From Mobula hypostoma (taxonomy: Eukaryota), in the NCBI RefSeq assembly GCF_963921235.1, contig NC_086108.1, positions 42,038,001-42,102,000 of the forward strand: a stretch of 64,000 nucleotides of DNA. The letters are read 5' to 3'. Below the pieces are notes generated by a model. It made no database searches. It was not told where the DNA came from and saw only the letters and a list, made by a program, of their open reading frames with translations. Within the stretch, counting starts at the first letter, position 1; every line of letters starts with the position of its first letter. Shown piece after piece: positions 1-30,594 of the stretch. Position numbers and translations under genes: made by a program.

Positions 1-95
1 TCACAACCGAATGAAACGCTTATTCAAAGAGATTGCGATGGACAGTATGACCAGCGGCCATCCTAGAGAAAGGAAAACAGGGTTAACATGTAAAA

Positions 96-372
96 CACAT
101 CAAAGTTGCTGGTGAACGCAGCAGGCCAGGCAGCATCTATAGGAAGAGGCGCAGTCGACGTTTCAGGCCGAGACCCTTCGTCAGGACTAACTGAAGGAAG
201 AGTGAGTAAGGGATTTGAACACACGTCACTCTTCCTTCAGTTAGTCCTGACGAAGGGTCTCGGCCTGAAACGTCGACTGCGCCTCTTCCTATAGATGCTG
301 CCTGGCCTGCTGCGTTCACCAGCAACTTTGATGTATGTTGCTTGAATTTCCAGCATCTGCAGAATTCCTGTT
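96..372. mobile_element. Fold-back Penelope-like element insertion #1 (inverted 3' ends; tailed arm on +)
   Basis: Arm ~96-205 pairs with 226-~335 across a 20-nt loop. Extra tail ...gaatttccagcatctgcagaattcctgttgtt on the right arm only. TSD gttaacatgtaaaa at 82-95 and 373-386. Confidence 0.9.
243..278 (+). ncRNA. Minimal type I hammerhead ribozyme motif (mirror copy at 153-188 on -)
   Basis: agtc-CTGACGA-agggtctcggcct-GAAA-cgtc/gact: core boxes CUGANGA and GAAA, stem I agtc:gact, palindromic acgt stem III, predicted GUC cleavage after 274. Confidence 0.75.
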
Positions 373-1825
373 GTTAACATGTAAAATTGTGGTTTTTGCT
401 GTTATTTTAAATCACAGCTAGGCGATAGAGTTTAAGTTGCGAGGTTTTTAAGGGACAACAAGAGAAAAGGTGAAGATTCGAACCACAATGGAAATCGGGA
501 AAGTTTAAATGACCAAAAGGACTGGGACGAGTGAAGAAATAGGAGCGTTTTGAGGAGGTACAAATGGGTGAAGCAGAACAGTCTCGCCGACAGCTGCAGT
601 AGTGGCTAAACATGTACAATCTACAACGAAGACAACGCGGTAGAAATCGGAGAAGGAAAAATAAACATGAAGAAATAAGTGGTGATGATGTGAAGTTTGA
701 ACGAGATAAAAAGAAACGAACAGAGGGGTCGCGTGGAAGAGTGGCTTGAAGGGAGTGGGTAATGGATGATTAAAAGTGAATTGGGGCGTTATGGAGGATA
801 CTCCGTAGGTCAACTTTAAATGGCACCTCCATTTATCTTCCTACAGAGGCTGCCGGATTCACCAAATATTTCCAGCATTTTCGGCCCTTGTTTTAGATTT
901 TTTTTATTGTCGTGCAAGATTACTTTATAGGTTTGATAGAGAGGTGAGCATAATTGCATGTGAAATCACACTAAGAATGCTGGGGATGACTGAGGATGAT
1001 TTCACTGCGATATTGGGAAGCAAGAAAATCATTCCTGATTTATGGGAAGAGATGAGAGTGACAGGTAGCGGACCCTGTAGGATAAAATTCTCAACTGCGG
1101 TCCGAAGGACTAATACGTAACAGAATGCACCATGTGACTAAATGAGATGAAGACAAGTGAAAGGATTAGCGTTCTGAAGAGAAGCAAATTACAAGTGGCA
1201 GTCTTTGGGCTTTCACTTGGTAGTCTTCACTCGATAATTGTTGACAACAAACTTCCGGTAGAGTTACAGAGAAGTCAAAGAAAATAATGCAAGATTCTGT
1301 GAAATTGTGTTCACAGTGAGGACAAGAAATAAATGATGGTCAACTATTCTTAAAAGTGAGAGATGGGATCCCTGTTGAACCCGAGCAAAGAATTTATCCC
1401 ACGTGTAGGCAGGCGTAGATACACTCGCAAGTTGCCATAGCAACAGCTTTTATGTGGAGATCTTAACGAGAATCAAAGGAGACGTTGTTCAAAGCAAGAA
1501 CTAATTCATTAAGGTAGAGGAGGACAACGGTGATCGTTTTGAATTTATTGAGTTTCTGTTCAAGAAAGAATTAGACTGCCTGGCTTTCCTGATTGTAGAG
1601 TAATACTGGAGGCCAAGAGAAAAAGGAGACAATTAGAAACTGTACCAAAGAGCATTGGGTATATTAGCTGGTATAAGCTGAATCAAAGGAAGAGAGGGTT
1701 TAAAACAGAAGGAAGAAATAAATTCTAAGAACAAGAATAGGCTTTGGTTGCGACGACAAGATCAGTCACACTTGTCACCTCAGGAAGAGGGATGGTAGTA
1801 GCCAAGTGAGTTTGAGAAGATCGAG

Positions 1826-2063
1826 CAACACACATCAAAGTTGCTGGTGAATGCAGCAGGCCAAGCAGCATCTATAGGAAGAGGCGCAGTCGACGTTTCA
1901 GGCCGAGACCCTTCGTCAGGACTAACTGAAGTTAGTCCTGACGAAGGGTCTCGGCCTGAAACGTCGACTGCGCCTCTTCCTATAGATGCTGCTTGGCCTG
2001 CTGCGTTCACCAGCAACTTTGATGTGTGTTGCTTGAATTTCCAGCATCTGCAGAATTCCTGTT
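1826..2063. mobile_element. Fold-back Penelope-like element insertion #2
   Basis: Near-perfect palindrome 1826-1927 / 1930-2031 (2-nt loop, one mismatch seen) plus a ~35-nt tail on the right. TSD gtttgagaagatcgag at 1810-1825 and 2064-2079. Confidence 0.92.
1934..1969 (+). ncRNA. Minimal hammerhead ribozyme motif (mirror copy at 1888-1923 on -)
   Basis: Identical to the motif at 243-278. Confidence 0.75.
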
Positions 2064-2208
2064 GTTTGAGAAGATCGAGAACAGGTCTGTCTATATTGGA
2101 TAGATTGAGTCTATATGAACTCAAAATAAGAAAGATACAATCACTCTGATGCGATTATACCACACAACCCCCTCCATCCAATAGTTATCAGGACATTGAG
2201 GAACACAT

Positions 2209-3429
2209 TGTCATGGTCCAGTCCATGAAGTCTGCATTCCAGTTCACAGTCCAGTCCATTGATCCTTTTTCTGGGTTTTCCAGTTTTCTCCCTTGTTCTG
2301 TTGGGTGCCTTAATTGAGGCACGTGATTCTCATTTTGGTCTGGCACATAAATACCTCTGCAAACCAGGTACTGTTTGCTGGACTGTTCCCTTCTGCCTGA
2401 AACCTTGTCAGTATTCCTGTCAAGTTCAACTGCTGGAGTGAGACTGGAGCCTTGTCTTGCCATGCCAAGATAAGGAACTATCTATTGTTGAGTTTGGAAC
2501 TGTATCTTTGTGCCCTTGTGTTTAGTGTCTGTGTCTAAGATGAGAGTCCTGGCCCTATGTCCTGTTCCCAAGGAGGGTTCCTGGCTCTGTGTTCCATCTT
2601 CCTGTGTTTCAAGTCCAAGGCTCTGTATTCCTGTGCTCAAACCTAAGGCTCTGTGCTCCTGTGCTCCAAGAACAAGTCCATGTGCTGTGTTCCATCCCTG
2701 GCGAAGTCTGAGCTTTGTGTCCTCATCCAGTTCTGGTGCCTTGCCCAGCCTGGTGCTGGAGATTCCTTGTCCTGTGCCGGATTGCCCCATCTGAATCCTT
2801 GGCAGTCATCCTGTCCCTGTGCTCTGAGGAGGGGGTCCTGTACCTGCATCCAAGAGCCTAACCAAGCTGAGTCCAAGAGCCATGTCCTGTGCTGGAGATT
2901 CCTTGCCCAGCCCAGAAGTACCTCACCCAGCCTGGTGCTGGGGTTCCCACGTCCTGTCCAAGCCATGTCCAAGAACCTTGTCCTGTCCAAGCCAAGGCTT
3001 TGTGTTCTTGTCCTGTCCATGTGCCTCGTCCTGTGCAGGAATTCCATGTCCAGTCCTGTAGCCACATACTGTACTTGCCAGGATCCTAGTCCCGAGTCCT
3101 AGCCTCAACCTGGGTTCTGGTTCCAAGTCAAGACCCAGGTTCCAAGTCCCAACCAAGACCCAGGTTCCAGGTCCTTGTCCAAACTCTGGTTCTGGAGTTC
3201 CAAGTTCCTAGTCCAGGCTCCTTGTTCCTCGTTCCATGTCTGGGTTCTGTGCTTCTGGCCCAAGTCCTAGCCCAGGCCCTGAATCCTAGTCTCGTCCAGG
3301 GCCTGTGTCAATGTCCAGTGTTGTTTCTTCCTGACTCCCCCTGCTTTCTTGCCAAACCTAGTCCTGTTCCTAGAACTGTAGTGTCTCTGTCTTGCATTTG
3401 GGTCTGCCATCAATGCCCCCTGTGTAACA
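2209..3429 (+). mobile_element. Solo LTR (~1.2 kb, probably Gypsy-type) with internal degenerate tandem repeats
   Basis: TG...CA termini (tgtcatgg...tgtaaca) and 5-bp TSD cacat at 2204-2208 and 3430-3434. TATA-like ataaata near 2347. Repeated units such as cccagcctggtgctgg and ccaagacccaggttcc. Interrupts a CR1 endonuclease region. Strand is tentative. Confidence 0.8.
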
Positions 3430-4465
3430 CACATGTAGGAAGATTAGAAAAAGGTATAAAAACAACAGGGATGTTGTAATGGGCAACTTCAGATTCCCTA
3501 ATATATATTGAGACCTCCTTAGAAGACTTGGACAGGGCAAAATTTATTAGGTGAAGCCAGGAGAGCTTCTTAAATCAAGAGGTAGATAGACAAAGGAGAG
3601 AAGGACCATACTGGGCCTGGTATTGGGTAATGGGCCTGGCCAGGTGACTGATCTTTCAGTGGGGAAACAGTTGAGGAATAGTGATCACAACTCCTTAAAA
3701 TATAAAAAAAACTTTTAAGATAGCCATAAATAACAATAAGTATTGATTTTGTAGGAGAATATTAAACAGCAGCAGGGCAAATTGCAAGAATATTAAGCAG
3801 GATCTAGGGAGAGCTCAGTGGAAGCAGATGTTTTTGGGCAAGTCCACATCTGACATGTGGAGGGTGTTTAAAGACCCACTGCACAGAGCACAGGAAAGGT
3901 GTGATCAAGTAAGAGAGAAGGACATGAATGTCAATGTAAGGAAACTTAGATGTTGAAAGAGGCGGTGAATTTAGTTAAGGATGAAAAAGAAATATATAAG
4001 GTTTAGGAAACTAAAATCAAACAGAGACCTTGAGGATTATAAAGAAGCCAGAAATGGGCTCACAAAGGGAAGTAGGAGAACAGGAAGAGCCATGAAAAGT
4101 CCTTGGAAAGTAGGATTAAAGAGAATGCCAAGATATTCTATACAGATTTTAAGAACAAGAGAATAACTGGGGAGCAAGTAGGACTACTCAAAGATAAAGG
4201 ATGGAATGTGTTTGGAGGTGGAGGATATGGGAGAGTCCTAAATGAGTACTTGGCATCAGTAATTACCAAGTAGAAGGACATGGAGGATTGGGAGATCAGT
4301 ACAGAGTGTGCTAATTTGCTAGGACATTTCAAGATAAAGGAGGAGGTAGGGTCTCTTAAATAATATTAAGATGGAGAACATTAAGATAAATAAGTCTCCA
4401 GTGCCTGATGGGTATACCCCAAGTTACTAAGAGAGATAAGAGATGAGATTGCTGGGACCTAGACT

Positions 4466-5070
4466 GTGGGTGGCATGGTAGCATAGCCATGAATGTAAAG
4501 CTGTAACAGCGTCAGTGACCCATGTTTAATTCCCGTCACTGCCTGTAAGGAGTTAGTACATTCTCCCCATTGCTCCTGTTCCCTCCCACATTCAAACTTG
4601 AATTGACTTTATCTTTTATATCCTTCACATACATGAGTAAAAATCTTTATGTTACCTCTCTAACTAAATGTGCAATTTATTGTAATTTGTAGTAAATAGT
4701 ATGTACAACAGGACAGTCAATACAGCATAGGAATACAATTGTATCATCGTGAATTAATCAGTCTGATGGCCTGTTGGTCCTGGCTTTTATGCTGTGGTAC
4801 CGTTTCCCGGATGGTAGCAGCTGGAACAGTTTGTGGTTGGGGTGACTCAGGTCCCCAATGATCCTTCAAGCCCTTTTTACACACCTGTCTCTGTAAATGT
4901 CCTGAATAGTGGGAAGCTCACATCTGCACCACTCTCTGCGGAGTCCTGCGATTGAGGGAGAGGCGCACAGGTTTGCAGGTTAATTGGTCACGTGGATGTA
5001 AATGGGTGGCATGTGCTCATTGGGTCAGCAGGGCCTATTTCCGTGCTGTATCTCTAAATAAATAAATACA
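4466..5070 (+). mobile_element. tRNA-derived V-SINE-like element with an internal insertion (~4594-4960)
   Basis: 5' ggtggcatggtagcatag (A-box-like), gtttaattcc (B-box-like), body tgtaaggagttagtacattctcccc, CR1-like 3' end and (taaa)n tail. Confidence 0.6.
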
Positions 5071-7449
5071 TAAAATATCTTTGTGTCCTCTTTAGTCACT
5101 GATGAGGTCCTGGAGTCCTGATGAATAGCAAATGTTGTTCCATTATTCAAGTAGGGAATTGGGAAGAACCCTGGAAAACATAGACCAGCAAGTTTCACAT
5201 ACATTGGAGGGAAGGTGCTGGAGAGGATTCTTACGGATAGGATTTATGAGCATTTGGAAAATAATGGACTAATTAGGTAGGTCAGCATGGTTTTGTGTGG
5301 GGCAATTCATGTCTTACTAAATTGATAGTTTTTTTGAGGAAGTGTGAGAAGAGCTGTGGAATCAGAATTAGTTTTATTGTCATTAACATATGTCATTAAA
5401 TTTCTTTCACGGCAACAGCACAGGACAAGACAGAAACATTGTTTTAAGCTACAAAAATAGGTAAACAGCAGCAGAGACAAATAACAAGATACAGTAGTGC
5501 TTAAAGACCACTCAGAAATCTGATGACTGAGGGCAAGAAGCTGTTCTTAAAACATTGAGTGTGGGCATTTAGGCTCCTGTACCTCCTCCCTGATGGTAAT
5601 AATGCACAGAGAGCATGTCCTGGATGGTGAGGGACTTTAATGATGGATGTCACCTTCTAGAAACATTGTTCCTTGAAGATGTCCCTGATGGCTAGGAGGG
5701 TAGTGTCCATGGTGGAACTGTCTACATGGATTTTAGTAAGGTATTTGACAAGGTTCCTCACGGGAGCCTCATTCAAAAGATTAAGATGCATGATTAGAAT
5801 CCAAGATAAATTGCCCATTTGGATTCTGAAGTGTTTTGCCCAGAGAAAACAGAAGGTAGCGGTCAATGAGACTTACTATGGCTGAAGATCTGTGACTAGT
5901 GATGTTCCACAGAGGTTGTAGTAGAACTTCTGTTTATGATATATATATATGACTTGCATGAAAATGTAGTTAGGTGGATTGTAAATTTGCAGATAATATG
6001 AAAATTGGTGGTATTCTGGATAGTGTAGAAGACTGGCAGAGGACACAGTAGGACAAAGATAGGTTGCAAATATGGGTGGAGAAATGGCAGATGGAGTTTA
6101 ACCCAACCAGATATGAAGTTTTGCACTCTAAGAAATCAAATATAAAGGAACAGTACACTGTTAATGGCAATGTTGATGTGCAGAAATTTTCAAGTCCAAG
6201 ATTTTGCTCCCTGAAAGTGATTCAACAGGTTGATAGGATTAAGAAGGCATATGGCATGCTTGTCTTTATTTGTCAATGAATTGAGTTCAAGAGTTCAGAA
6301 GTTGTGTTGCAAATTTAATAAAACCCTTGAGTAGGCCACATTTGAAAAATTATATTTAATTCTGGTCACCCCATTGTAGGAAGGATGTTGAGGCTTTGGA
6401 GAAGGTGCAGAAGAGGTTTACCAGGATGCTGCATGGATTAGAGGGAAAGTGCTATAAGAGATTGGACAAATTTGGCTTGTTTTCTCCGGAGTGGGGGAGG
6501 CTTGAGTGAGATCTGACAGAGGTTTGTAAGATTATGAGATAAGTAGATAATGTAGACAAAGCATCTTTTCCCAGGGTTGAAATGTCTAAAACTAGAGGGA
6601 ATGCATTTAAAGTGAGAGTGGTTAAGTTCAAAGGAAATGTGCAGGGCAAGCTTTTTCTTTACAGAGTGCTGTGAGTGCCTGGAATGCACTGTGGATTGGT
6701 AGTAGAGGCTGTTTACAACTCATGTTCTCAGTATCATCTTTATTTGTAGTTTGTCTTTCATTTGCAAAGTGGTATTTTGTAGTTTTTGTCTGTATGTATA
6801 ACTTTTCATAAAATTCTGTTGGATTTCTTTTTTTCCCTGTACGTCCCTACAAGAAAATAAATATCAAGGTAATATATGCTGACATATACATACTTTGATC
6901 ATAAATTTACCTTGAATTTTGAAATATGATGTTCAAAAGGCTCTGAAATAAGCACGTGAGTGTGCTGGAAAAGCAAAGGATATGGGGATATGTAGACAGG
7001 GCATTTTATTTCTTGGTCGTTGTAAATTGTCTCGTGATCAAGTTCATGGATCGAAGGGCCAGAAGATCCCACTGTGTGTCATATCACTAAGATAAATAAT
7101 TTATTTAGTTCAGCACAGCAATGTGCACTGCTCCTGTGCAGTGCTGTTCCATGTTTTAGGTAATTTTCTAGCCAAGCTCTTCAATAGAGAGGCCAGTGAT
7201 GTCCAGAAAACAACAATGTAATATTCAGTGATGGGTCACAATCTAGGGAAAGGGCATGGTTGATGTTTATCATGATCAAGGTCCACTTGGCATTCAACAG
7301 TGCATTTATTGGCAGCAGATGCATTAACAATATCAGATTGGCCCATTAATTGTCTTCTCATTATATTCATTATTCTAAATACATCCTGCTTGGGATGATT
7401 TAGAACACAAGTTGTGGGCGATCATAAGTGCTACACTGTAGATAAAGAT

Positions 7450-8025
7450 AACTTTGTTGAGCACCTTCACTCCATCTGCCAAAACAGCCATGTTTTCCCA
7501 GCTTACAACCATTTTAATTCCACTTTCATTCCCACAATGGCATGTCTGTCCACAAACTCCTCTCTTCCCAAGTTGAAGCTAACTCCAGATTAGAGGAACA
7601 GCACGTCATATTCTGTCTTGGAAGTCTCCACCCAATGACAGCATCTGTATTGATTTCACTGACTTCTGATGACCATTCTCCCTGTTCCCAACATCCCATT
7701 TGTTTTCCCTTATCCCAAAGCCCCCAATCCCCCTTCTCATTTGCTTCTCCTGCTCACTTGATCTGCCTCTCACCCAGATTCTTCCCTCTAGTTCCCTACC
7801 TCCTTTGCTTTATTCCACGGCTCACTGTCGTGTCCTATCAGATTCCACCTTCTTCAGCTCTTTTCCCCCTTTCTTCAATCACTCCCATCTTATTCCCACT
7901 CCCAACCCCCAGCTGTCTCTCCTCACCTGGGCTCACTAATCATTTGGCAGCTCGTGTTCCTCCACACCCCCCCCCACCCTTTTACTCCGAGCCCTGCCCA
8001 CTTTCTATACAGTCTTGATATAGGG
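7450..8025 (+). mobile_element. Old Penelope-like element 3' fragment (GIY-YIG C-terminus plus pyrimidine-rich UTR)
   Basis: ORF 7542 reads MSVHKLL...RLEEQHVIFCLGSLHP, similar to the other PLE copies in the window. Confidence 0.7.
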
Positions 8026-8160
8026 TGAGAGGGAGAGACTTTTTCTTGCTCTGGAGAAAGATCACCAACTTTCAAGGTCTCAAAGCTGCCTTAAAGTCAG
8101 TATTGTTGCAGTCAAAACTTCACAAACAACATGACAGCATCAGTGACTGGAAATTACTCG

Positions 8161-8525
8161 ATGGCTAATGATGAGAGGCATTGACCATGTTGATAGTCAG
8201 AGGCTTTTTCCTAGGGTTGAAATGGCCAACATGAGATGGCACAGTTTTAAGGTGTTTGAAAGTAGATACAGAGGAGATGTCAGGGGTAAGTTGTTTTTTT
8301 TAAAAAAAAAACGCAGAGTGGTGAGTACATGGATTGGGCTGCCAGCAATGGTGGTGGAGGTGGATACAATAGGGTCTTTTAAGAGACTCTTGGATAGGTA
8401 CATGGAGTTTAGAAAAGCAGGGCTATTGGTAACCCTCGATAATTTCTAAATTAAGTACATGTTCGGCACAGCATTGTGGGCCGAAGGGCCTGTATTGTGC
8501 TGTAGGTTTTCTATATTTCTATGAC
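8161..8525 (+). mobile_element. CR1 3' terminal fragment
   Basis: MRGIDHVDSQRLFPRV...RVVSTWIGLP; 3' end gggccgaagggcctgtattgtgctgtaggttttctat. Confidence 0.85.
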
Positions 8526-9604
8526 TCAATGGAAAAGAAAATTAGCTACACAGAAACCTGAAGGCCATTAAAATGGAAAGTCTATGACTTCAAGAACAGA
8601 AGGCTTGTGGCAGAAAATTAGGATATCCAGCAACTCACTGTTAATAACCTATAGACAAGATATTCAATTACCCATCCTGCTGAAACCAAAGAATGACAAA
8701 AAGGTATAACATATTGATGCCTGCTAGAAGGAACACTTGAAAGAAGAGCGGTGACATTATACCAGAAAAGTGTCTTCCATTCTACAGTAAAATATCCAAA
8801 GGTTTATTTTATTGTCAAAGTATGTATGCAGAATACAACTGAGATTTGACTTTTCCAGATAGCCACAAAATACAGAAAGCCATAGAAATAATTGACAGGA
8901 AGACATCAATTCCCCCCTGCACAAAAAGAAAAAGAAAACAAAAACAAAAACTTGCAAACCCCAAAACCCCCCCCACCCCTCCCTTACACAAAATCTAACA
9001 GATCACCCAAATTCCCAGCCTGCCAATCGGTAAAAAGAATGGTCAAGAACACACAAAAAAATCATGTAGAACTAAAAGTACTAAAAGATCCAGTCCAGCC
9101 TCAATCTCCTGACTGATGAAGTCAGGAAGTTCACATGCCAACAGTTAACAAGAAGTTCTTGTGAGCCAGTGATATTTCCTCTGAAGTTATAAAACTTGGC
9201 AGAGAGGAACTTCAGTCACAAATTCACCTCATCTTCCATGTCTGGGAAACAAAGGGCATGAGATTTATTGTTAGTTATCACAACCATCTAATTAGCCTTG
9301 TACTGGAAACATCTGTCCATGATAAATACAGCATGGATCCTCAAAATTCATCTGCCCCACTGGCCAAAGAACTAGCCCCTGGAATCATTGTGTGAATTCT
9401 ATAGGCAGAATGGACATGATCCTCACCTGACATCAGTGAAAATGTAGAGAGCAAAATCGACAGCTAGATCTTTTCTGACCCCTTAAAAACACTGACTCCA
9501 TCATCTGAGAGATTCCCTGCAGAAATTCTTTTTCATTTTTTGTCTTTGAAATTATGGCGAACTAGCATTGATCACAACCGAGATCTATTCTGATCTGTTT
9601 CTGA

Positions 9605-12250
9605 AATTCAGGGAGTAAAGAAGGAGGGGAATAACTACAGGGACTAATCTGTCAGATCAACGCAAAAATAATCACAGCAAATGGTGGGCCAAAGTATAGA
9701 CAGATCAGAATTTGAAAGGGAGAAGTTAAACTTAGTGGAGTAAGGGGAATTACAGAGACATGAGAGAGAAGCTGGGAAAAGTTGAAGGGGACACTAGGGA
9801 TGACGTCAGAAAAGCAATAGCTGGAGCTCAGGGAGAAATTTGGAAGGTGCGAGATAAATATATACCAAACATGTAGACATTTTCTAAAGGGAGGATGAGG
9901 CAACCGTGAGTGACAGGGGAAGTCAAAGATAGCATAAAATCAAGAGAGGGCATATAATAGAGTAAAAAGTAGTGAAAGCTTTTAAAAATCAACAGAAAGC
10001 AACTAAAAAAGCCCCAAGGAGAGAAAAGATGATACATGGAAATAAGCTAGCCAATACTATAAAAGGGGATACCAGAAGTTTTTTCAGACATATAAGGAGT
10101 GAAAGAGAGGCGAGAGTGGATATTAGACCACTGAAAGAGTAGTAATGGGGGCCAAAGAAATGGCGTACAAACTTTTGCATTTTGTATTTTGCATCAGTCT
10201 TCATTGTGGAAGACACTAGTGGTATGCCAGAAATGTGAGAGTGACAGAGGGCAGAAGTGAGTGCCATTGCTATTAGTAAGGAGAAGTTGCTTGGGAAGCT
10301 GAAAGGTCGGAAAGTAGATAAGTCACCTAGACATGGACTACACACCAAGGTTCTGAAAGAGACAGCTGAAGAGATTGTGCAGGCATTAGTAACAATCCTT
10401 CAAGAATCATGAGATTCTGGAATGGGTCTGGAGGACTGGAAAATTGCAAATGTCACTCCACTCTTTAAGAAGAGGTGGGGAGGCAGAAGAAAGGATACTA
10501 TAGGCCAGTTAGCTTAAACTTCAGTGGTTGGGAAATTGTTGGAGTCCATTATTAAGGATGAGGTTTCAGGGTACATGGAGACAATAGACAATAGGTGCAG
10601 GAGTCGGCCATTCAGCCCTTCGAGCCAGCACCACCATTCACTGTGCTCATGGCTGATCATCCACAATCAGTACCCTGTTCCTGCCTTCTCCCATATCCCT
10701 TGACTCCACTATCTTTAAGAGCTCTATCTAACTCTTTCTTGAAAGAATCCATAGAATTGGCCTCCACTGACTTCTGAGGCAGAGCATTCCACAGAATCAC
10801 AACCCTGTGTGGAAAAACTTTTTCCTCAACTTCGTTCTGAATGGTCTACCCCTTATTCTTAAACTGTGGCCTCTGGTTCTGGACTCCCTCAACATCGGGA
10901 ACATGTTTCCTGCCTCTAGCGTGTCCAATCCCTTAATAATTTTGTGTTTCAATCAGATCCCCTCTCATCCTTCTAAATTCCAGTGTATACAAGCCCAGTC
11001 GCTCCAGTCTTTCAACATATGACATTCCCAACAGACACATGATAAAATTGGCCAAAGTCAGCATGGTTTCCTTAAGAGAAAACCTTTGAAGAAATAACAA
11101 TCAGGACAGATGAAGGAAAGTCGATGTTGTATACTTGGGTTTTCAGAAGGCCTTTAACAAGGTGCCGCACATGTGGCTGCTTAAAAAGAGCCCATGGTTT
11201 TGCAGGAGAGATACTAGCATGGAAAGAAGATTGGCTGACTAGTAGGAGGCAAAGAGTGGGAATCAAGGGGGCCTTTACTGGTTGGATGTCAGTGACTAGT
11301 GGTGTTTCGCAAAGGTTGGTGTTGGGAATGCTTCTTTTCATGTTATGTCAATGATTTGGATGAGGAAATTGATGGCTTATTGACCAAGTTTTCAGACAAT
11401 ATGAAGGTAGGTGGATGGGCAGGTAGCATTGAGGAAGCAGGGAGTCAGATTGGGAGAATGGCCAAAAAGATGGAAGTGAAATATAGTGCAGGGAAGTGTA
11501 TTGTCAAGCACTTAGTAGAAGGAATAAAGGCGTAGACTATTTTCTAAATGGGGAGAAAATTTAAAAAGTCGGAGGTGCAAAGGGACTTGGGAGTTCTTGT
11601 GCAAGATTTCCTAAAGGTTAACTTGCAGTTTGAGTTGGTGGTAGGGAAGGCAAATGCAATGTTAACATTCATTTCAAGAGGGCTAGAATATAAAAGCAAG
11701 AATATAATGGTGAGGCTTTATAAGGCATTGATCAGACTGTACTTGGGGTATTGTGAGCAGTTTTTAAGCCTCTTATCTAAGAAAAGATGTGCTGGCATTG
11801 GAGATGGTCCAGAGGAAGAGAATGAAGAGTGTTTGATGGCTCTGAGCCTATACTCGCTGGAGTTTAGAAACATGAGGAGAGACCTCATTGAAACCTATCT
11901 AATATTGAAAGGCCTAGATAGAGTAGATGTGGAAAGGATGTTTCCTGTTGTGGGGGAGTCTGGAACCAGAGGGCACAGCCTCAGAATAGAGGAACTTCCA
12001 TTTAGTACAAAGATGAGGATGAATTTCAGAGGGTAGTGAATCTGTGGAATTCGTTACCACAAACAGATGTGGAGGCCAATTCATTGGGTATACTTAAAGT
12101 GGAGGTTGACAGGTCCTTAATTGGTCAAGGTATCAAAGATTACAGGGAGAAGGCAGGAGAATGGGGTTGAGAGGGATAATAAATCAGCCATGATGAAAAG
12201 GCTGAGCAGACTTGATGGGGTGAATACCCTAATTCAGCTCCTAACCTTAT
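9605..12250 (+). mobile_element. Degenerate 5'-truncated CR1 LINE with an antisense CR1 3' fragment inserted at ~10580-11030
   Basis: RT motifs (VTSGVSQ, YVNDLDEEIDG...KFSDNMKVGG, QRDLGVLVQ). The inserted piece begins with acaatagacaataggtgcaggag, a reversed CR1 tail. Confidence 0.85.
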
Positions 12251-14070
12251 GGAAAGTCCTGTTTATGTAACTTCAAGTGAAATAAATGAGTGACATTCTA
12301 TGAGACAGATAAAATATTAATCTACCACCTGCAGTACTACAGATAAAACATTAACCTACCATTGTCATAAAGTTTCCAACACAGCTTCGAAATTGATAAC
12401 ATTTACTTAATTAAAAGATTCTATGGAGTCTCTGCTTTAGAAGTAAGCATTACTTTATTTAAAAACCTGAAAGGTTTTCCCTGCACTTATGTGAGCATGA
12501 AGAAGCAAGGCACTTTTGACTGCAGATCAGCAAAGTCAACAAGTGTGAGTGGTGGTGCAAATAAATTACATTGTCTTTAATGCTGTAATAACTCTAATAC
12601 AAGTGCTATTTATCCCTTTGATTTTACAATTTCAAGTCCGTACAGTCAACCTTGATTTTTGAAATACAAGGAATGGCATATCAGTGTAACGATTCAGATT
12701 TTTTTTACATTCAGAGAAAATAATCCCTACCAAAACAAACAAAGCAATTTTCTGAGCCAAGCTGAAATTCATCGGCTTTAATTCTAACATACTCTACTCT
12801 TCTTGGACGACAAAAAAAAACACATTTTAAATATAACTGCTAGGCCATTCACAAATGAGTAAAGTATGCTGGAAAGATTTATCCAGAAACATTTTAACTA
12901 TTGTAAGGATCCCCAAGCTGTCAGCTGCGTAGTAAAGTACCCTTGAGTGATGTAGTTTGACACAGAACACAGTAGCACCCATCCACCAAACTATATTCAA
13001 ATATTACTAGTTGTTAAATTAACCATTCCAACAACTTATTTGAGAATTTGAAAACAATAGGCACTTTTGAGACTGTCAAAGCCTCTACACACATTACCTC
13101 TGCAACAATAGAGATACTTTTTCATCCCATTATATTCATCTGAAGTGAAAGATCAATGTGCAAACCCCTTGCACCTCAATTATTATAACTTGTGCTTAAA
13201 GAACAAAACAGGAACGTGTAATATGGTCTGAGGAAGATGACTATGTTCATCATTATTTTTAGATATTATTGCATACATACATTTTGTGCTTTTCTCTAAA
13301 ACAGCAAACTCACTTTCGTGGAAGAATCAGATAATAACCTAACCTACATTATTGAAGTAGCTGAGAAACATTGCAGTATAATTCAGCTCATATAATATGT
13401 TCTTTCCTTGTACCATTTATTCTTAGATGGATTCCGTTTATTTTCACTTGGGAGAACCTCTGTAGCCAGTTTTTAACTAGAATTGCAATTTAAATGGTTA
13501 TCAGCTGGGATCATTAATCTCCAGGCAGTAAAATACAAAACATCTGAAATAGAAGTATGACTTCTCAGGCCTGGATCACAGAAGATTTTCCCTTTCAAAA
13601 GCCTTGTGATCGTGTGGCAAATTTAGGGCTAAACCATCAAGGTACTGACCCAGGCAGGGTCTGATGGTGCAACTCTTTGTCTTCAGATCAGAACACAACA
13701 GGTTAACACTCTATCTATACTACCAAGGAAAGTACTGAGGGCAGGCTTGGTAGCTGAATACCCAGAAAGATATTAGCCCAGTTCACCTGCTGTTGTTTTT
13801 ATCAACTTTAAAAAAACATATACAAAAGGAAAATATTATTCAACCATTTTTTTTGTGAAATATGGTACCAACCCTTGAGGGAAGAGTGGAAGGAAAATGC
13901 ATTTTATACAAGGCAAAAGGGTGTATTTTCAGTACCAAAAGTTTACAAAAATTCAATCAGTTCAGTAATAAATAGCAACAATATATATATCTGCTGCATT
14001 TCTAATATTAAGAATGTACAGGAGATTCTGTAGATCGTAAACCATAAATGAAGTGCAATGAAACAATCAT

Positions 14071-14076
14071 TTTATT
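14071..14076 (-). promoter_or_regulatory. Candidate polyadenylation signal (AATAAA) for KIF14; alternatives at 13416-13421 and 12454-12459
   Basis: tttatt on the + strand ~45 nt past the stop, in a stretch (~12250-14120) with no recognised repeats, consistent with a 3' UTR. Which signal is used cannot be told from sequence. Confidence 0.35.
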
Positions 14077-14120
14077 GCTTATGATATTAAAGATTTGATG
14101 AACTTCAGGTTGGCGATCTT

Positions 14121-14515
14121 TCAAACCCATTGTGCACTTGATTTTTCTGAAGCTGAAGTTGTTCCTTGGAGTGTGTATACAACTTTCTTAACACCTCTAC
14201 CATACCACCTAGCAGAGTTAACATCTGTGGAAGTCTTGATCTTCCCTTCGTTCTTTTCATTGTTATCAGAGTAACTTGGGTGTCTCTCTTCATCTTGAAG
14301 ATATTCAATTAAATCAAGGAAAGAGCAGGCAGCCAGCTCTATTTCACTTAGCGCTAACTGAGAATCTTTGTCAGGTTTACTTTCTCTGACAGAGGATGCA
14401 CTCTTCTCATGGCGTGAGGAAGCCCAGAGCCTCCCAAATTTATCAGCCACTTGCTTTACTGATGAACAAACCACGTCTATGAATTTTTTTAGCTGATCAT
14501 TGGCCACACTGTCAC
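14121..14515 (-). CDS. KIF14: KIF14 last coding exon, ending ...RWYGRGVKKVVYTLQGTTSASEKSSAQWV*
   Basis: ctcttgcag acceptor; open to TGA at 14123-14121. The C-terminus matches the recalled KIF14 ending GVPKRVYELHG...QWV*. Confidence 0.93.
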
Positions 14516-15860
14516 CTGCAAGAGTTCACCAACAATGACATAAAAATTCAATGCTAACAGTGTTAAAATAGAAGAATTTGTATTTTATTTTATGTACTGT
14601 TTTCCCACCCCAAACTGAAAAGAAGAACAAGAGTCAAATATCTATGGTATCTAGGCCAGGTAAGTGGAAAAATACGAAGAAAACAGAATCAAACATACCC
14701 AGATAACTGATATGATAGATTTGAACAAAAATGGTTTAACAGAATAAGAGTAAGTGACTTTGTCTTAACACCAGATTATGAATTCTACTTGATTTAACAG
14801 ATCTAATTTTATAGGCAAATTAACTTAAGAACTTCAGTTCTTTTTAAGAATCCAAATTCCATGAATAAACTGAAAATTCACATCATCCACCAACACTAAA
14901 TCATGATAGTCAATGCCTCTTACTTTCTTTCAAGTTTGTCATTTAAAATCATGTACAAAACTTGTTTATTTTTATGCACGTTTTCTGTGATCCAAATATT
15001 GTACAACATGTAAAGAACAACAGGCTAGTTTTAGTCTACATGCATACCATTTGAAAGCATGGTATTATCTATCAACCAAAGGAATTGGAAAAATGAGGCA
15101 GAATTTTTAATATAGGTCTCTTGTTATCACTATAGCATGTCCAAGGGAGAATTTAATTCTGACCATTCACAAAACGAAGATCACAGTTCCTGAAACTGAA
15201 TTTGTTTTGGTCATGAACACAAAAGAAAATGATAAAACCTTAAGTATCAAAAAAATTAAGTAAATACTTCAGATTGAAAACTACATAATTTTCACCCGCC
15301 CCCACTCATACCCTATACCAGATACTTGTAAAAAAGCCTGTGTTTTTGCATTTGCTTTATTTGAATGTGGGTCACCCACAGACATGACTGTAATAAGGCT
15401 GGAATAATTGTCTCCATTTCAGTTGTCAGAATATTTTAGAATCAACTGAACACTTTGTCTGTCCCATGATAAAACCATCAAATTTAAATGTGATTCATTG
15501 CAATGGATAATGAAAAAACATCCCAGATCATAAAAAAATCTTTCAATTATTGCTGCATTCAAAATAGGTAAAAATATCTGGAATTCATACTCCCCAAGCT
15601 TTTGCTTCAGAATTGAACTTGAATTTGATAAACGTTCTACTCCAGCATTATGTTTACACGTAAGGCAGCCAAGAAGAGAAGAATGCATTTGCAAGTTCAA
15701 AAAGCTACATGTTAAGCATTGTAATTATAAGGAAAAAATGCAAATAAACTTTGAAAATGAGGATAAATATATGCTTGAAATTCCTGGCAGAACTATACCT
15801 TAATATTCTGGATAGATTTCTCTAGAATTAAAATACCCAAGTAAATGTTAAATACCTTAC

Positions 15861-15999
15861 CTCTCAGCACCAAAGTCATCAGCTGGTATAAACTGTGTGA
15901 ACTTTCATTAAGCTTCACCATTACAGCAGCAACGGTGAGCAGGGTCTTGAGCGAGTCCATACAACAGGTCATGTTTTCTTGGATTTGAGCACCCATCTT
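15861..15999 (-). CDS. KIF14: KIF14 penultimate coding exon: KMGAQIQENMTCCMDSLKTLLTVAAVMVKLNESSHSLYQLMTLVLR(G)
   Basis: ttttgtggcag acceptor (NAGNAG) and gtaagg donor; 139 nt, phase 0 to 1. Confidence 0.87.
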
Positions 16000-18289
16000 C
16001 TGCCACAAAATTATTTTGAAATCAAAAATGAAAAGGTATGAGCGTCTAAGACAAAGTCATTAAATTTCACAATGCCAGTCTAGTATGTACATACACTAAG
16101 TATTGCTAGAGATGGTGTGATATAAATGATAGGTGGACTTGATAAAGGATATCTATCAGGATGTCTATCAGCACAGCTTGGTTTCCAATCACAACACTGT
16201 TTTAAATCTCTAGGAACAGGACCTTTTGAAACATTAGCTATAAAGTAAATAGAAAACCGGGGTATTGCCATAAAATTAATACAAATTCTTCCTGCATAAC
16301 CCTATATTGAGTGACCCAAAGATACACTTAAGAATATACAATTTCATTATACTTACAGGCCAAGCATCAATACAAGCCAGCATGAAAAGAAGCAGCCAAA
16401 ATAAACAGAACAATGAATTTTTAAAGAAGCTCCTTTGAATTAGTCAACATAGTCTTTCATAACCACTGAAAAATCACATTCTCGTTTGTCTGCTAACCAA
16501 ATATTTCAGCATGACAGTCTCCTTTGTGGGAATAGGTAACAAAGAGTTGGCCATGCGAGAGAGATACTTCCCAGCTTTTCTCTGCTCATTTCAATAAATC
16601 ACAAGACATAACAAGTGACCTGTAGACTCCTTTTGTTCAATGAAGGAACCACTTTCTGTTGTATATTCAAACAGGGATGTCTAAAATAAAATATTTTCTG
16701 TTTGCAAAACCGCATACATTTTCTGGGGCTCATTCTCCAGTTGCGTCTGAGACTTTCAATCTCAAACGTCCTGGCTGAATAAACATTCAGCTTCCATTTA
16801 AACTGAATGTGATGCGTGTTACCAAAAGTCAAGTTTAACTGGAACATAACAACCAAGCATCAACATGCTCACCGCAGCAACAATAAAATTTGCATCCCCT
16901 CAGTAAACCGTCAGTAGATGACAAATTATCGAGTCAATTCACAGAAAGGAAGGAATGAAAGGGACTTTAACAAGCAATTTATTAAGCAGCTTCATCACTA
17001 ACCCTTCTACTAATTCAATGAAACTTGCAGATTTTCTGTTGTCCATACAGGCTTAATCTATGAATTGTTTGTGCTTAATCAGAAAAGAGAATGTGGTGTG
17101 AGAGATAACAGAACCTGCCTTTTACAGATAAGGTTACCATTGAGCACATAATTTGTAGCAACTAAGTGTGAACATACAGATAGGTTCAAGAAGTACATTA
17201 GAGTTTGGGAATGCTATTCATAAAATAATATCAATTAATTCTGATTATGTTGTAATGGAAGTGGGAGGTTTAATTTTCATTAATATAGCTCTTAATGTAA
17301 CTTTTTTAAAGTTGCAAATCATGATAGCTCTATATGATTTAGCATGGAAATGAAAATACCTCAGATCACGGTAGTCATGGTTTTGTCCCCCAGTTAGTGG
17401 ATTCTTTGTGAAAATCCCAGTTTGTAGTTAGATATTAAAGAATACATTTCCAGTTTAAACCTGGATAATGCTTTAAAATTATTTAAGTTGGAAAAAGCCA
17501 ACTGAACATTTGCACTTTAACACTATACAGCAATGGAAACACACGACACAAATGCCTCAATATTTAAAACAATAAACTGAGTGCCTTCACAGAACTGGGT
17601 CTTAAATACCGACTTTTCAAAAACTTGAAAGTTATTCTTTCCTTTCAGCATTCCCATTCTGTCAAACAAGTGTGGAAAGTTCCCCTGACAAAATGCATTA
17701 ATTACATGGGGTTGAGTGGAATTTGGGATCAGCCATGACGGAATACAGAGCAGACTCAATGGGCTGAATAGCCTAATTCTGCTCCTGTGTCTTATGGTCC
17801 TATGGTCTATGGACCCAAAACTATTTTCACATTATGTACAACAACACTAGTGATTTTTCTGTCATTTACAAGCACACTAATCATTCATCCAATATTCATA
17901 TCTAAATTATCAACTCATTATAGTCAGGGTCCCAGCCACGGATCTTGTGGTACACCACTGTTCACAATCTTCCAATCACCAAAGCAACTCACCACCATCA
18001 CCTTTATTATCAAGCCAATCTCGGATCTAATTTGCCAAGTTGCCCCGGATCCTAAGGACAACTCATATCCATGGGCAATCTTTTAGATCTGTCTTCTAAG
18101 TGGGACTTTGTCAAAAGCCTCACTGAAGTTCAAGTAGACCATACAATCTATACTGCCCTTATAGATAAGTCTTCAGAGTTCTCCACAACAACCTGACTGA
18201 ACACTTAAATCTTGTTATGACTGCATAATGAGAAATGAGTGGTTTTCATAGTTACATGAAAAAGGATCTAGTGTTTTCCAAGTGTATAT

Positions 18290-18645
18290 CACGAATAAAC
18301 TCTTCTCAGGGTTCAAGCCGGGGATACAGGTATTGATTATAACCGAAGTTTCAATGACAAACTCTGCCACCTTCTTCAGGGATAATGCTTGGGCATGTCT
18401 AGTCCGGTGGTATTTATACCCCTATATTCTGTGCCTCCTGGTTGGTTAGTCCTCATCTAATCAGGTTTCTGCTCTTCCACCTTTTTTTGAATAATCAAAT
18501 TCCAGTTCTTACTTAGAGCAAGATCTTCATCTTTGTTAAAATTCTTTTCCTCTAGTTTTATTTCAATAGAGTGCAAGTTTGTCATCGAAATGTTGGTTAC
18601 AATCAATACCTGTACCCGGTTTGAAGCCCGAGAGGAGTTTAATCA
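18290..18645 (-). mobile_element. Second-family Penelope-like element, 5'-truncated, with an inverted copy of its 3' end
   Basis: The minus strand encodes IEIKLEEKNFNKDEDLALSKNWNLII (PLE GIY-YIG C-terminus) followed by cctgaagaaggtggcagagtttgtcattgaaac (hammerhead-like). 18296-18363 is an inverted repeat of 18577-18641. Confidence 0.75.
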
Positions 18646-19413
18646 TCATGTTTTCATACTTTTTGTATCTTCCTTTCACTTCCCTCTGATTTTAAAATAG
18701 TGAGACCATTTCAAAATCTACTATATTGTATCGAATAACTATCTTAAATAATATAGATAATTTTAATTTTGTCCTTTCACAATAGCTCCAGAGATACCTT
18801 TTACACCTGCTCTTAAAAGAGGCCAGAAAGTGGCAAAGATTTGGGGAAAAAAACTATAAATGTCAAAATTTGATAGAATACAGAAGCAACAAAACTGAGA
18901 CATGAAACTACTGTACTGGTACATTAATGTTTCTTCTAATGTGCTGCTTACAAACTAACATATGATATTCAAATCATTGTTTTCCTGAAATTTGTTGTGA
19001 AGTTATCCTATGTAAAACCATAGTAAGAGGTGGAACATTCTGGAATGGTAATTTTAAGCCATTATGAAATGTTAGCATGTAAACTGGGGATTGAGATGTT
19101 TCAAAGCAGCAATAAGCATTCAATGCAGCTTCACTTTATCCAGTTGTTTTATAATGCAATGATATTTGATTAAAAGTTTTAGTCAACACACTCGCACAAG
19201 TGTAAATTAACAACTCCACAAATGGGTGTGTGTAAATAAATCAATTATAACTGAGCAATCAGAGAAACTTACAGCAAGAAACAGGCCCTTTCAGTCCACC
19301 TTGACCATACCAAAACATGATGATTATCAACACTAATCCCATTTTCCCTCATTAGGTCCCTTTTCCTCTATAGCTTTTCTAAGCAAGTGCTTGTCCAAAT
19401 GCTTTTTAAAATA

Positions 19414-20223
19414 CAAACAACAGGAATTCTGCAGATGCTGGAAATTCAAGCAACACACATCAAAGTTGCTGGTGAATGCAGCAGGCCAAGCAGCATCTAT
19501 AGGAAGAGGTGCAGTCGACGTTTCAGGCTGAGACCCTTCGTCAGGACTAACTGAAGGAAGAGTGAGTAAGGGATTTGAAAGCTGGAGGGGGAGGGGGAGA
19601 TGCAAAATGATAGGAGAAGACAGGAGGGGGAGGGATAGAGCCGAGAGCTGGACAGGTGATAGGCAAAAGGGAATACGAGAGGATCATGGGACAGGAGGTC
19701 CAGGAAGAAAGACGGGGGGGGGGGGTGACCCAGAGGATGGGCAAGATGTATATTCAGAGGGACAGAGGGAGAAAAAGGAGAGTGAGAGAAAGAATGTGTG
19801 CATAAAAATGAGTAACAGCTGGAGTACGAGGGGGAGGTGGGGCCTTAGCGGAATTTTTAGTCCTGAATTTTTATGCACACATTCTTTCTCTCACTCTCCT
19901 TTTTCTCCCTCTGTCCCTCTGAATATACCTCTTGCCCATCCTCTGGGTCAACCCCCCCCCGTGTCTTTCTTCCCGGACCTCCTGTCCCATGATCCTCTCG
20001 TATCCCCTTTTGCCTATCACCTGTCCAGCTCTCGGCTCTATCCCTCCCCCTCCTGTCTTCTCCTATCATTTTGCATCTCCCCCTCCCCCTCCAGCTTTCA
20101 AATCCCTTACTCACTCTTCCTTCAGTTAGTCCTGACGAAGGGTCTCGGCCTGAAACGTCGACTGCACCTCTTCCTATAGATGCTGCTTGGCCTGCTGCGT
20201 TCACCAGCAACTTTGATGTGTGT
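19414..20223. mobile_element. Fold-back Penelope-like element insertion #3 (tailed arm on -), in a KIF14 intron
   Basis: ~360-bp arms (~19449-19809 and 19867-~20227) with a ~57-nt loop; tail on the left arm only. TSD tgctttttaaaata at 19400-19413 and 20224-20237. Confidence 0.92.
19513..19548 (-). ncRNA. Minimal hammerhead ribozyme motif in KIF14 sense orientation (mirror copy at 20128-20163 on +)
   Basis: Reverse complement reads agtcCTGACGAagggtctcagcctGAAAcgtcgact. Confidence 0.7.
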
Positions 20224-20329
20224 TGCTTTTTAAAATATCTGTGTCCAGAACTTCATCTGGCAGCTGGCTACAAATATTCACTACTCTATGACAAACCTAC
20301 CCCTCATATCTTCTTTAACTGATTTGAGT

Positions 20330-21810
20330 TGTAGGGAGATAACTAGAAGGAGTCTGGAGGGACAAGATCTACCATCACTTGGGTAGTCAAGACCTGATCA
20401 AGAATAGTCAGCATGGTTTTGTGCATGGGAGCTTATGCCTGATGAATTTTTAGGAGGTTTTTTTGAAAAGAGAATAGATGAAGGTAGGGCATTAGGTGTT
20501 GTCTATTTGGACTATAGTAAGGCCTTTGAACAAAGTCCTGAATATGCTAATTTGGAAGGTTAGGTTTCATGGGATTCAGAGGGAGCTAGCAAGATAGATT
20601 CACAATTGACTTAATGATTGGAAGCAGAGGTCGATGATTGAAGGTCTATTTTCTGACTTGAGGCCTGTGATGGTGGGATGCCCCAGCGATCAGTGTTGGG
20701 ACCTCTGTTATTCATTATTTTTCTAAATGATTTGGCTATGGTATGATCAGGAAGTTTGCTGATAATACTAAATTAGGGAGTCTTGTTGATAGTGAAGCAG
20801 ATTACAATGAATTGCAAAGAGATCATGATCAGTTAGGGAGAAGGGCTGAGGAATGACAAATTATTCCAATTTAGGTATGTGTAAGGAGATGTGGTTTGGG
20901 CAGTCTAACCAGAGTAAGACCTATACAGTGAATGGCAGGGCATTGAGAAGGGTTGGGGAACAAAGAGATCTGGGAGTACAAGTGCACGGTCCACATTGTG
21001 GTGAAGGTGTTTAGCATGCTATCCTTCATCAATCAGCTGGCCGGTGATGTAGTGGCATTCATACTGGACTTCGAGGCGAGTGGTCCTTGGTTCAAATCCA
21101 GCTGGCTCCGTGCACGCTTTCCATCCATGCTGGGTTGAGCATTGAGCTAGCAACTCGGCCTCATAAAAAAACAGACAAATGCTAGAGAAATGGCAAAGCT
21201 ACTGCCTGGTGTGCCACAGGACACAAAGAGGAACAACAACAACATCATCATCAGTCAGGGTGTCGCATTTAGGAGTAGGGGCAGTTTGATGCAGTTATAT
21301 AAGTCATTGATTAGGCAACTCGTGTAGTATTGTGTACAGGTTTGGAAAGATAATGTCAAGCTGAGAATGCTGCCCGGACTAGAGGGCTTGAGTTATAGGG
21401 AGAGGCTGGCTACACTGGATTTCTATTCCACAGAGTGCAGAAGAATGAGAGATAACTTTGTATAAGTTTATAAAAGCATGACAAGTATCAATAAAGTGGA
21501 CAGTCACAATCTTTTCTTCACGATTGGGGAGTCCAAAACTAAACGGCGCAGATACAAGATATTTAAGAGAGAGATTTAAGAGACCTGAGAAGGAACTTCT
21601 TTACAGATGGTAGCGAGTACCTGGAAGGAGCTGCCAGAGGAAGTGGTCAAGGTGGGTACAGTTGCAATATTAAAGAGGAATTGGGTAAGTACATGGAGGG
21701 GAAGGACTTGGAGAGTTATGGGTCAAACATGACCAACTGGGATTAGCAGGGAGAATGCTATGGTCGGCATAGGCCAGTTGGGCCAAAGGGCCTATTTCTG
21801 TACTGACTTT
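20330..21810 (+). mobile_element. Degenerate CR1 RT/3' fragment with a tRNA-SINE inserted at ~21037-21245
   Basis: Decayed QHGFVHG and [11 protein letters not shown] motifs. The SINE has ggccggtgatgtagtgg / ggttcaaatcc boxes, an (aac)n tail and imperfect flanking repeats catcaatcag / catcagtcag. Confidence 0.75.
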
Positions 21811-22165
21811 AAAATGCTCACTTTTTGCCATAAACCTGTGCTCTCTAGTTTTTGACTCACCTGCTCTAGAAAAAAAAGATTCTGACTAGTTGTTCTATCA
21901 ATGCCCTTCATAATTAATATCAAATTTTTAATATTTACTATCGATTTGTAATCCAGGGAGCGCAAAGCACAGAATCAGATATTGCTGTGATGATTATACG
22001 CTCTCGTATCAATTGTTTGGCGACAATAAAGTAATTTTATAAACCTAAGATCACCCCCTCCACTGAAAATAAACGGGGGTATCCAATCACATCAGTTATT
22101 CTAGGATCAAACTACTAAAAAGAGAACAATTAATCTGAATGGCGCTGATAAACAAATCGCCCCAC

Positions 22166-30215: not shown

Positions 30216-30594
30216 AGGAAGTTAATACAATTATGCTTTGATTAGCCAGAAACATCAGATCTTCCCCTACCCTATTTGTGACCCTCCTCTTTGCAACTAA
30301 TATATACCTCCTCTTGTCCGTTTTGTATTTATTTTCATTTTCTCTCTACATTGGCAGCATTCCATTGCTTTCTACGCACATTGTCAACCAGATGTCCTTA
30401 TGCAATTTATTTGAATCTAAAACCAAATCATAATAACATTTAAAATCTGTACATACTAGATCATATTTACTAATTCTGAAGATAAGGATATTAATGATAA
30501 TGCAAACCATTTTTTAAAAATAAATTCTCCATCTTTATTTTACCTACTGTATATACTTTTATTTTCTTTTGTACTCAAATGTTCATTTGCATAC

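What the first reader, a model, noticed from the sequence alone, without database searches (positions are those of the whole stretch)
82..20237. Three independent fold-back Penelope mini-insertions share one asymmetric design
Seen in sequence: 96-372, 1826-2063 and 19414-20223 each consist of the same PLE 3' end joined head-to-head to an inverted copy of itself. Arm lengths differ (~110, ~102 and ~360 bp), as do loops (20, 2 and ~57 nt), and each insert has its own 14-16 bp TSD. In all three, one arm carries the full tail (...cttgaatttccagcatctgcagaattcctgttgtt) and the other starts ~32-40 nt inside, near caacacacatc. Established: inverted pseudo-LTRs and a short 3' extension tail are described for Drosophila Penelope. 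Inference: because the centres differ, the hairpin is made anew at each insertion rather than copied from a palindromic master, so this family acts as a generator of long genomic hairpins. Three young copies in 20 kb suggest very many genome-wide.
Basis: partly seen in the sequence, partly recalled or inferred. Interest (0 to 1): 0.75.

Follow-up and report, generated by a model that had tools for sequence, protein, structure and literature searches.

The report
Head-to-head Penelope-like retroelement stubs
Three short, recent hairpin-shaped insertions in a ray genome are cut-short copies of a Penelope-like jumping gene; their lopsided back-to-back layout is the already published signature of these elements, though their seams give a tidy hint of how that layout is made.

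Summary
In detail: three palindromic inserts (arms 110, 102, 357 nt; centres 20, 2, 57 nt; TSDs 14, 16, 14 bp), each with one tailed arm and one starting 32-39 nt inside. They are truncated pseudo-LTR ends of a GIY-YIG Penelope-like element (PLE), probably Neptune/Nematis-type: each arm has a minimal hammerhead, and the longest reaches the ORF stop codon. Contigs of a close relative run through all three sites without the element, so they are recent, separate insertions, probably not artefacts; the centres were not confirmed in reads. The design is published: an inverted 5'-truncated copy plus a one-sided 30-40 bp tail (Craig 2021, Arkhipova 2013), opposite-strand hammerhead pairs 100-700 bp apart (Cervera 2014), both-strand nicking with two RT start sites (Frangieh 2024). 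'Made anew at each insertion' is supported; 'fold-back' is doubtful, because in two of three the tail-less arm reaches further at the centre. Best model: two target-primed cDNAs, primed through 1-5 nt microhomology, joined by end-joining. The palindromic share genome-wide was not measured. Unchecked notes show the scan met this pattern repeatedly in this genome and others. New member of a known kind.

The parts
82..95 (.). E1 left target-site duplication (14 bp)
96..219 (-). E1 tail-less arm (element antisense on + strand); reaches 14 nt further 5' in the element than its partner; hammerhead core 161-184
220..225 (.). E1 6-nt filler; weak match to the tail-less start region (p about 0.03)
226..372 (+). 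E1 tailed arm; hammerhead core 247-270; 3-nt microhomology with right TSD
373..386 (.). E1 right TSD; relative's contig starts aligning here and goes on 2544 nt upstream without the element
   Evidence: record 25
1810..1825 (.). E2 left TSD (16 bp); contigs of two other species stop aligning at 1809 and go on without the element
   Evidence: records 25, 9
1826..1931 (-). E2 tail-less arm; reaches 2-4 nt further 5' than partner; 2-nt microhomology at centre (1930-1931); hammerhead core 1896-1919
1930..2063 (+). E2 tailed arm; hammerhead core 1938-1961; 5-nt microhomology with right TSD
2064..2079 (.). E2 right TSD
19400..19413 (.). E3 left TSD (14 bp); relative's contig aligns to 19413 and goes on 185 nt without the element
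   Evidence: record 32
19414..19853 (-). E3 tailed long arm: last two ORF codons and stop, pyrimidine-rich 3' UTR, hammerhead core 19521-19544, tail
   Evidence: loose end behind 19853; tblastn to P0001
19854..19866 (.). E3 13-nt filler with a 10-nt match to the element's own hammerhead region (p about 0.002)
19867..20223 (+). E3 tail-less arm; hammerhead core 20132-20155; 5-nt microhomology with right TSD
20224..20237 (.). E3 right TSD
16030..22165 (-). Approximate KIF14 intron that holds E3 (context); E1 and E2 lie beyond the last coding exon at 14124-14522
44100..45240 (+). Older, decayed PLE relative with GIY-YIG remnant and the same pLTR/tail layout, no inverted arm (context)
32385..33495 (+). 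Older, decayed PLE relative ending at the tail end, no inverted arm (context)
29635..30216 (+). Older, decayed PLE relative ending at the tail-less site, no inverted arm (context)

Best explanation
Each insert is one abortive integration of an endonuclease-bearing Penelope-like element. The RT/GIY-YIG protein nicks both strands 14-16 bp apart. Each 3' overhang anneals through 1-5 bases to the element RNA, one at the tail end and the other 32-39 nt inside, and each primes its own cDNA. Both cDNAs stop early (100-440 nt); their free 3' ends are joined head to head by microhomology or templated end-joining, and gap filling gives a palindrome inside one TSD with a new centre each time. Shown here: structure, TSDs, PLE identity, microhomologies, templated filler, different centres, recent age. 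Shown in print for another PLE: both-strand nicking and extension and two start sites that define the tail. Inferred: that each arm is a separate cDNA, that both come from one RNA or one source locus, and that host end-joining closes the centre.
For: Both outer ends fall on the two family-specific sites in 3 of 3 inserts, and older single-armed relatives end at the same two sites (2 at the tail, 1 at the tail-less site; alignment). Microhomology with the target at 5 of 5 testable outer junctions (1, 2, 3, 5, 5 nt; the sixth has no reference beyond it); a sum of 16 has p below 1e-4 in a geometric null. In E1 and E2 the arm that reaches further at the centre is the tail-less one, which a single self-copying cDNA cannot give. 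The E3 filler carries a 10-nt copy of the element's own sequence. PMC11167929 reports that an anole PLE nicks and extends both strands, starts at two sites whose spacing is the tail, and is predicted to be a dimer. E3's arms match the read-through C-terminus of ray RT/GIY-YIG protein P0001 at 80-86%.
Against: Only three inserts. The two arms agree at both insert-distinguishing sites in 3 of 3 inserts, which is what fold-back or a palindromic template predicts; two cDNAs fit only if they share a source or were later homogenised (one site is about 48% variant in the family, so chance alone gives about 0.125). PMC11167929 found no start-site difference between strands and no homology between target and start site, so one-long-one-short in 3 of 3 (chance 0.125 at equal use) and the microhomology are not predicted by it. 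Centres can flip after insertion (recalled, not tested), which would blur the arm-length argument. The E2 5-nt microhomology uses E3 as its only reference.
Confidence: 0.62

Rival explanations
1. Snap-back: one cDNA (or an antisense RNA, as proposed for rotifer PLEs) folds back on itself, copies itself, and the copy is joined to the second nick before reaching the tail.
For: Arms share insert-specific variants in 3 of 3 inserts. PMC3846280 proposes self-priming from palindromes at inverted junctions. E3's tailed arm is the longer one.
Against: In E1 and E2 the tail-less arm is the longer at the centre, so the copy would hold a tail its template lacks. It does not explain why the tail-less end falls within 8 nt in 3 of 3 inserts and at the end of a single-armed old copy. 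E1 and E3 centres hold filler, not a built-in complement.
Confidence: 0.2
2. The inserts are copies of several different palindromic source loci, each transcribed and retroposed as a ready-made hairpin (non-autonomous mini-elements).
For: Arms agree within inserts; the family is very abundant, so many sources could exist.
Against: Three of three centres differ; both outer ends sit on RT start sites with target microhomology, while a retroposed hairpin would have one such end and one 5' end.
Confidence: 0.1
3. Assembly or library fold-back artefact.
For: The three centre junctions were not among the joints listed (15 shown, 7186 not shown); the same-species contigs enter the element by only 19-22 nt, under the tool's 31-letter rule for a bridge, and may be the source sample.
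Against: Each palindrome is short, lies between two unique flanks inside a perfect TSD, and its arms differ, partly by CpG-type changes; the relative's contigs leave the alignment exactly at TSD edges.
Confidence: 0.03
4. An ordinary MITE or other DNA transposon with long terminal inverted repeats.
For: Short, inverted arms, TSD.
Against: Ends are not symmetrical (one-sided tail), TSD is long and variable, centres differ, and the arm continues into a GIY-YIG/RT ORF end.
Confidence: 0.02

Closest known systems
Inverted-pLTR insertions of EN+ Penelope-like elements with a one-sided 30-40 bp tail (PMC8557442 Fig. 2 legend and text; Pen2a_Av and Pen2 on scaffold 304 in PMC3846280)
   Same: Head-to-head inverted 5'-truncated copy, tail on one end only, single TSD round the whole unit, hammerhead in the pLTR.
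   Different: Here both arms are stubs with no ORF between; TSD 14-16 bp against 8-10 bp in the rotifer cases; host is a ray.
Dual minimal hammerheads 100-700 bp apart on opposite strands in Schistosoma mansoni PLE remnants (PMC4209133)
   Same: Two hammerheads on opposite strands; cores here lie about 60, 20 and 590 nt apart.
   Different: That paper mentions the pairs in one sentence and, in the parts read, gives no TSDs, tails or junctions.
Poseidon_Ac of the green anole in vitro (PMC11167929)
   Same: Both-strand nicking and extension; two RT start sites a tail apart, downstream of a hammerhead.
   Different: The paper does not discuss inverted insertions (its one use of 'inverted' is a reagent), reports no target homology and an AC-rich stem-loop; here there is 1-5 nt microhomology, the inner start is GU-rich on the ORF strand, and the related proteins carry the CX2-5CxxC linker absent from Poseidon.
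L1 twin priming (recalled, not from a call)
   Same: Both target strands prime reverse transcription and give an inversion inside one TSD, joined by microhomology.
   Different: L1 twin priming gives non-overlapping pieces; here both arms copy the same stretch, so the product is a palindrome.

Membership tests
EN+ Penelope-like element | Single ORF with RT and C-terminal GIY-YIG endonuclease | tested here: met
   Indirect, as the inserts hold only the ORF's last codons. E3 arms match P0001 residues 368-422 at 80-92%; P0001 has a GIY-YIG hit (E 4.6e-4, 20.9 bits, under the 22.6 cut-off) and 85 longer relatives, most with RT domains. The loose end behind 19853 in 3 of 4 runs reads by eye as the same C-terminus as P0002.
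EN+ Penelope-like element | Pseudo-LTR with minimal hammerhead | tested here: met
   Core motif in 6 of 6 arms (0 expected by chance). Rfam gave no hammerhead hit on 1-2400. Cleavage not tested.
EN+ Penelope-like element | Optional 30-40 bp tail on one end | tested here: met
   32-39 nt offset in 3 of 3 inserts.
EN+ Penelope-like element | Inverted 5'-truncated copy inside one TSD | tested here: met
   3 of 3 young inserts; 0 of 3 clear old copies.
EN+ Penelope-like element | CCHH motif with two cysteines between GIY and YIG | tested here: met
   In the related protein P0001, cysteines within the GIY..YIG stretch at 273-288; not in the inserts themselves; the histidines were not checked by script.
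Neptune/Nematis clades | CX2-5CxxC linker between RT and EN | tested here: met
   Present in P0001 (236) and P0002 (239); definition from PMC8557442.
Neptune/Nematis clades | Placement in RT phylogeny | not tested
   No reference set of named PLE clades was at hand; no tree was built.
MITE / DNA transposon | Symmetrical terminal inverted repeats, fixed short TSD, shared internal sequence | tested here: not met
   One-sided tail, TSD 14/16/14, three different centres.
Non-LTR retrozyme | Head-to-tail tandem monomers with hammerhead | tested here: not met
   Arrangement is head-to-head; no tandem array at these sites. Definition from bioRxiv 10.64898/2026.07.22.740005 passages.

The most novel reading that the evidence does not exclude
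In this ray family the one-long, one-short palindrome is the obligatory footprint of a dimeric PLE enzyme that primes two cDNAs on one RNA, one at each start site, with 1-5 nt of target microhomology. Tens of thousands of young inserts with empty sites in a sister species would then let the open question of how PLE inverted repeats form be settled from genome data alone, and would seed many long intronic dsRNA hairpins such as the 357-bp one in KIF14.
Probability: 0.3. Interest if true: 0.55.

Novelty: new member of a known kind. Interest (0 to 1): 0.27.

Why it matters
The layout is known, so the finding in itself is ordinary for a PLE-rich genome. Its value is as material: PMC8557442 names the formation of tandem/inverted structures as an unsolved part of PLE transposition, and this young, abundant family with empty sites in a close relative offers clean junctions to choose between two-cDNA priming and snap-back. 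If palindromes are common, they would also be a large source of intronic dsRNA and of fragile DNA hairpins in rays; neither effect was tested.

Tried and rejected
No whole genome is held, so the genome-wide table could not be made. Pattern scans found nothing in viral contigs or metagenome contigs. Rfam on 1-2400 gave 6 below-threshold microRNA hairpin matches and no hammerhead; these reflect the palindromes and were rejected. Pfam gave no PLE domain in 92 of 92 window ORFs of 95 aa or more nor in 4 of 4 decayed pieces. The single-arm 3' end folds no better than shuffles (z -0.08), so no special initiation stem-loop is shown. No RNA holder was listed on record; the one guessed-RNA run says nothing on expression of the hairpins. 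The joint table was swamped by repeats: neither the centres, nor the empty-site skip joints, nor fold-back points of other copies were among the rows shown, and no place with many ends was listed. E1 filler as a template jump is weak (p about 0.03). A weak 29-nt inverted match near the old copy at 7450-7900 (E 0.015) was not counted as an arm. Look-up by sequence in earlier findings gave nothing. PMC12602865 held none of the structural terms.

Full report
Observation. E1 (96-372), E2 (1826-2063) and E3 (19414-20223) each hold two inverted arms inside a perfect direct repeat of 14, 16 and 14 bp; 4 of 3000 random position pairs of like spacing held a 14-mer repeat. Strict arms are 110, 102 and 357 nt with 1, 1 and 8 differences; both E2's difference and 3 of E3's 8 are CpG-type, and 3 of E3's lie in a C-run. 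Tailed arms end 98, 98 and 103 nt after the predicted hammerhead cut, tail-less arms 61, 66 and 64 nt. The whole inserts fold as near-perfect hairpins (-244, -220, -769 kcal/mol as RNA), which follows trivially from the arms.

Identity. All 6 arms carry a minimal hammerhead core. E3's arms match the C-terminal read-through part of P0001, a ray protein, at 80-92%. P0001 has a GIY-YIG hit just under the Pfam cut-off, cysteines within the GIY..YIG stretch and a CX2-5CxxC linker, and 85 longer relatives that mostly carry RT domains. Family contigs in 3 of 4 runs leave E3 behind 19853 with one loose-end consensus (98% agreement in two runs, 76% in the third) that I read by eye as the same ORF end as P0002. 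So the arms are the 3' UTR/pseudo-LTR of an endonuclease-bearing PLE; the linker points to Neptune or Nematis by the definition in PMC8557442, but no tree was built. Older decayed relatives lie at 7447-7870, 29635-30216, 32385-33495, 43360-43867 and 44100-45240. The host is a ray-like fish: the nearest KIF14 is 91% identical over the last exon, ten KIF14 exons map on the minus strand, E3 lies in the intron between exons at 22166-22243 and 15859-16029, and E1 and E2 lie beyond the last coding exon.

Reality and age. Four of the 24 listed runs were laid on 1-20000. Same-species contigs span 353-1847 and 18540-19432 with no difference, entering E1, E2 and E3 by 20, 22 and 19 nt; that is under the tool's 31-letter rule and the run may be the source sample. 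In organism B (flanks 1.2-2.3% different: 64 in 5555, 32 in 1437, 21 in 901) one 4072-nt contig aligns from 373 to 1809 and goes on 2544 nt before and 96 nt after without the element; another aligns to 19413 and goes on 185 nt. A contig of organism D also stops at 1809 and goes on 149 nt. All these breaks sit on TSD edges, as empty sites would give; the skip joints themselves were not among the 15 rows shown of about 7200. The centres were not confirmed in reads. Summed depth on E3's arm is about 2.5 million against 11-15 on unique contigs; the tool warns that this is no copy number, and overlap of short contigs can inflate it up to some thirty-fold (my estimate), so I read it only as roughly ten to a hundred thousand arms. 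The palindromic share is unknown. None of three clear older copies in the window has an inverted partner within 1.5 kb.

Mechanism. Three features bear on it. First, outer ends: all six fall on two sites, and older single-armed copies end at the same two. At 5 of 5 testable junctions the target overlaps the element by 1, 2, 3, 5 and 5 nt (p below 1e-4 for the sum under a geometric null with match chance 0.25-0.35), as if each overhang annealed to the RNA; E2's 5 nt rest on E3 as the only reference. Second, centres: E1's tail-less arm runs 14 nt further than its partner, then 6 nt of filler; E2's tail-less arm runs 2-4 nt further and joins by 2-nt microhomology; E3's tailed arm runs 44 nt further, then 13 nt of filler with a 10-nt copy of the element's hammerhead region (p about 0.002). 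A cDNA that folds back must itself be the longer arm, and its copy cannot hold more than it does, so simple snap-back fails for E1 and E2 unless the centre flipped afterwards (a recalled property of palindromes, untested). Third, against this: the arms agree within each insert at both sites that distinguish the inserts. One of these sites is about 48% variant in the family, so three agreements have a chance near 0.125; this leans to one RNA or one source locus, or later conversion. I put 0.62 on two target-primed cDNAs joined by end-joining, 0.2 on snap-back, 0.1 on several palindromic sources, 0.05 on artefact or MITE. The likeness to L1 twin priming and to polymerase-theta templated inserts is recalled, not from a call.

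Known work. [quoted passage not shown] PMC3846280 (passages and Discussion) shows inserts with inverted pLTR, one-sided 31-bp tail and 9-10 bp TSD and proposes self-priming on an antisense template. PMC4209133 (parts 1-2 of 4) notes hammerhead pairs 100-700 bp apart on opposite strands. PMC11167929 (parts 1-2 of 4 and passages; supplementary figures not seen, and they may bear on start sites and microhomology) shows both-strand nicking and extension and two start sites that define the tail, but does not link them to inverted inserts. A bioRxiv paper on retrozymes (passages; supplements not seen) covers tandem forms only. Searches for a two-cDNA account of PLE palindromes or for a description in sharks and rays listed nothing that fits; the library lacks most subscription papers, including the older Penelope papers, so this does not show absence from print.

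Earlier scan notes (unchecked AI notes, not counted as support) show the same pattern noted several times in this genome and in others, with the same verdict; two report arms from different templates, which would fit two cDNAs, but I did not check them.

Verdict. Real, recent, PLE-derived, and of a published design. New member of a known kind; interest 0.27. The part worth keeping is the junction evidence for two-cDNA priming with microhomology, which a genome-wide table could test.

Noticed in passing
window 43360-43867 and 44100-45240 (+): Two decayed PLE ORF pieces in direct orientation next to each other, possibly an old partial tandem.
   Followed up: no
window 29635-30216, 32385-33495, 44100-45240: Older PLE relatives end at the same two sites as the young family (one tail-less, two tailed) but have no inverted arm within 1.5 kb; either they never had one or old palindromes lose an arm.
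   Followed up: partly
window 19414-20223 in KIF14 intron: E3 would form a 357-bp double-stranded stem in KIF14 pre-mRNA if transcribed through.
   Followed up: partly
window 59115-59654 (+), before 59633-61518: GDSL/SGNH esterase-like frame overlapping the start of an endonuclease/RT LINE frame.
   Followed up: no
window 61453-63051: Tc1/mariner-like transposase pieces (62008-62822) between 218-nt inverted repeats at 61453-61670 and 62834-63051, with an RT-like frame following.
   Followed up: no
window 45600-48100 and 52200-54850: Two LINE-like copies in opposite orientation, 70-80% alike, 5-9 kb apart; they look like separate insertions.
   Followed up: no
window 27746-27913 (-): Weak PLE-like piece on the minus strand (tblastn E 0.009).
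   Followed up: no
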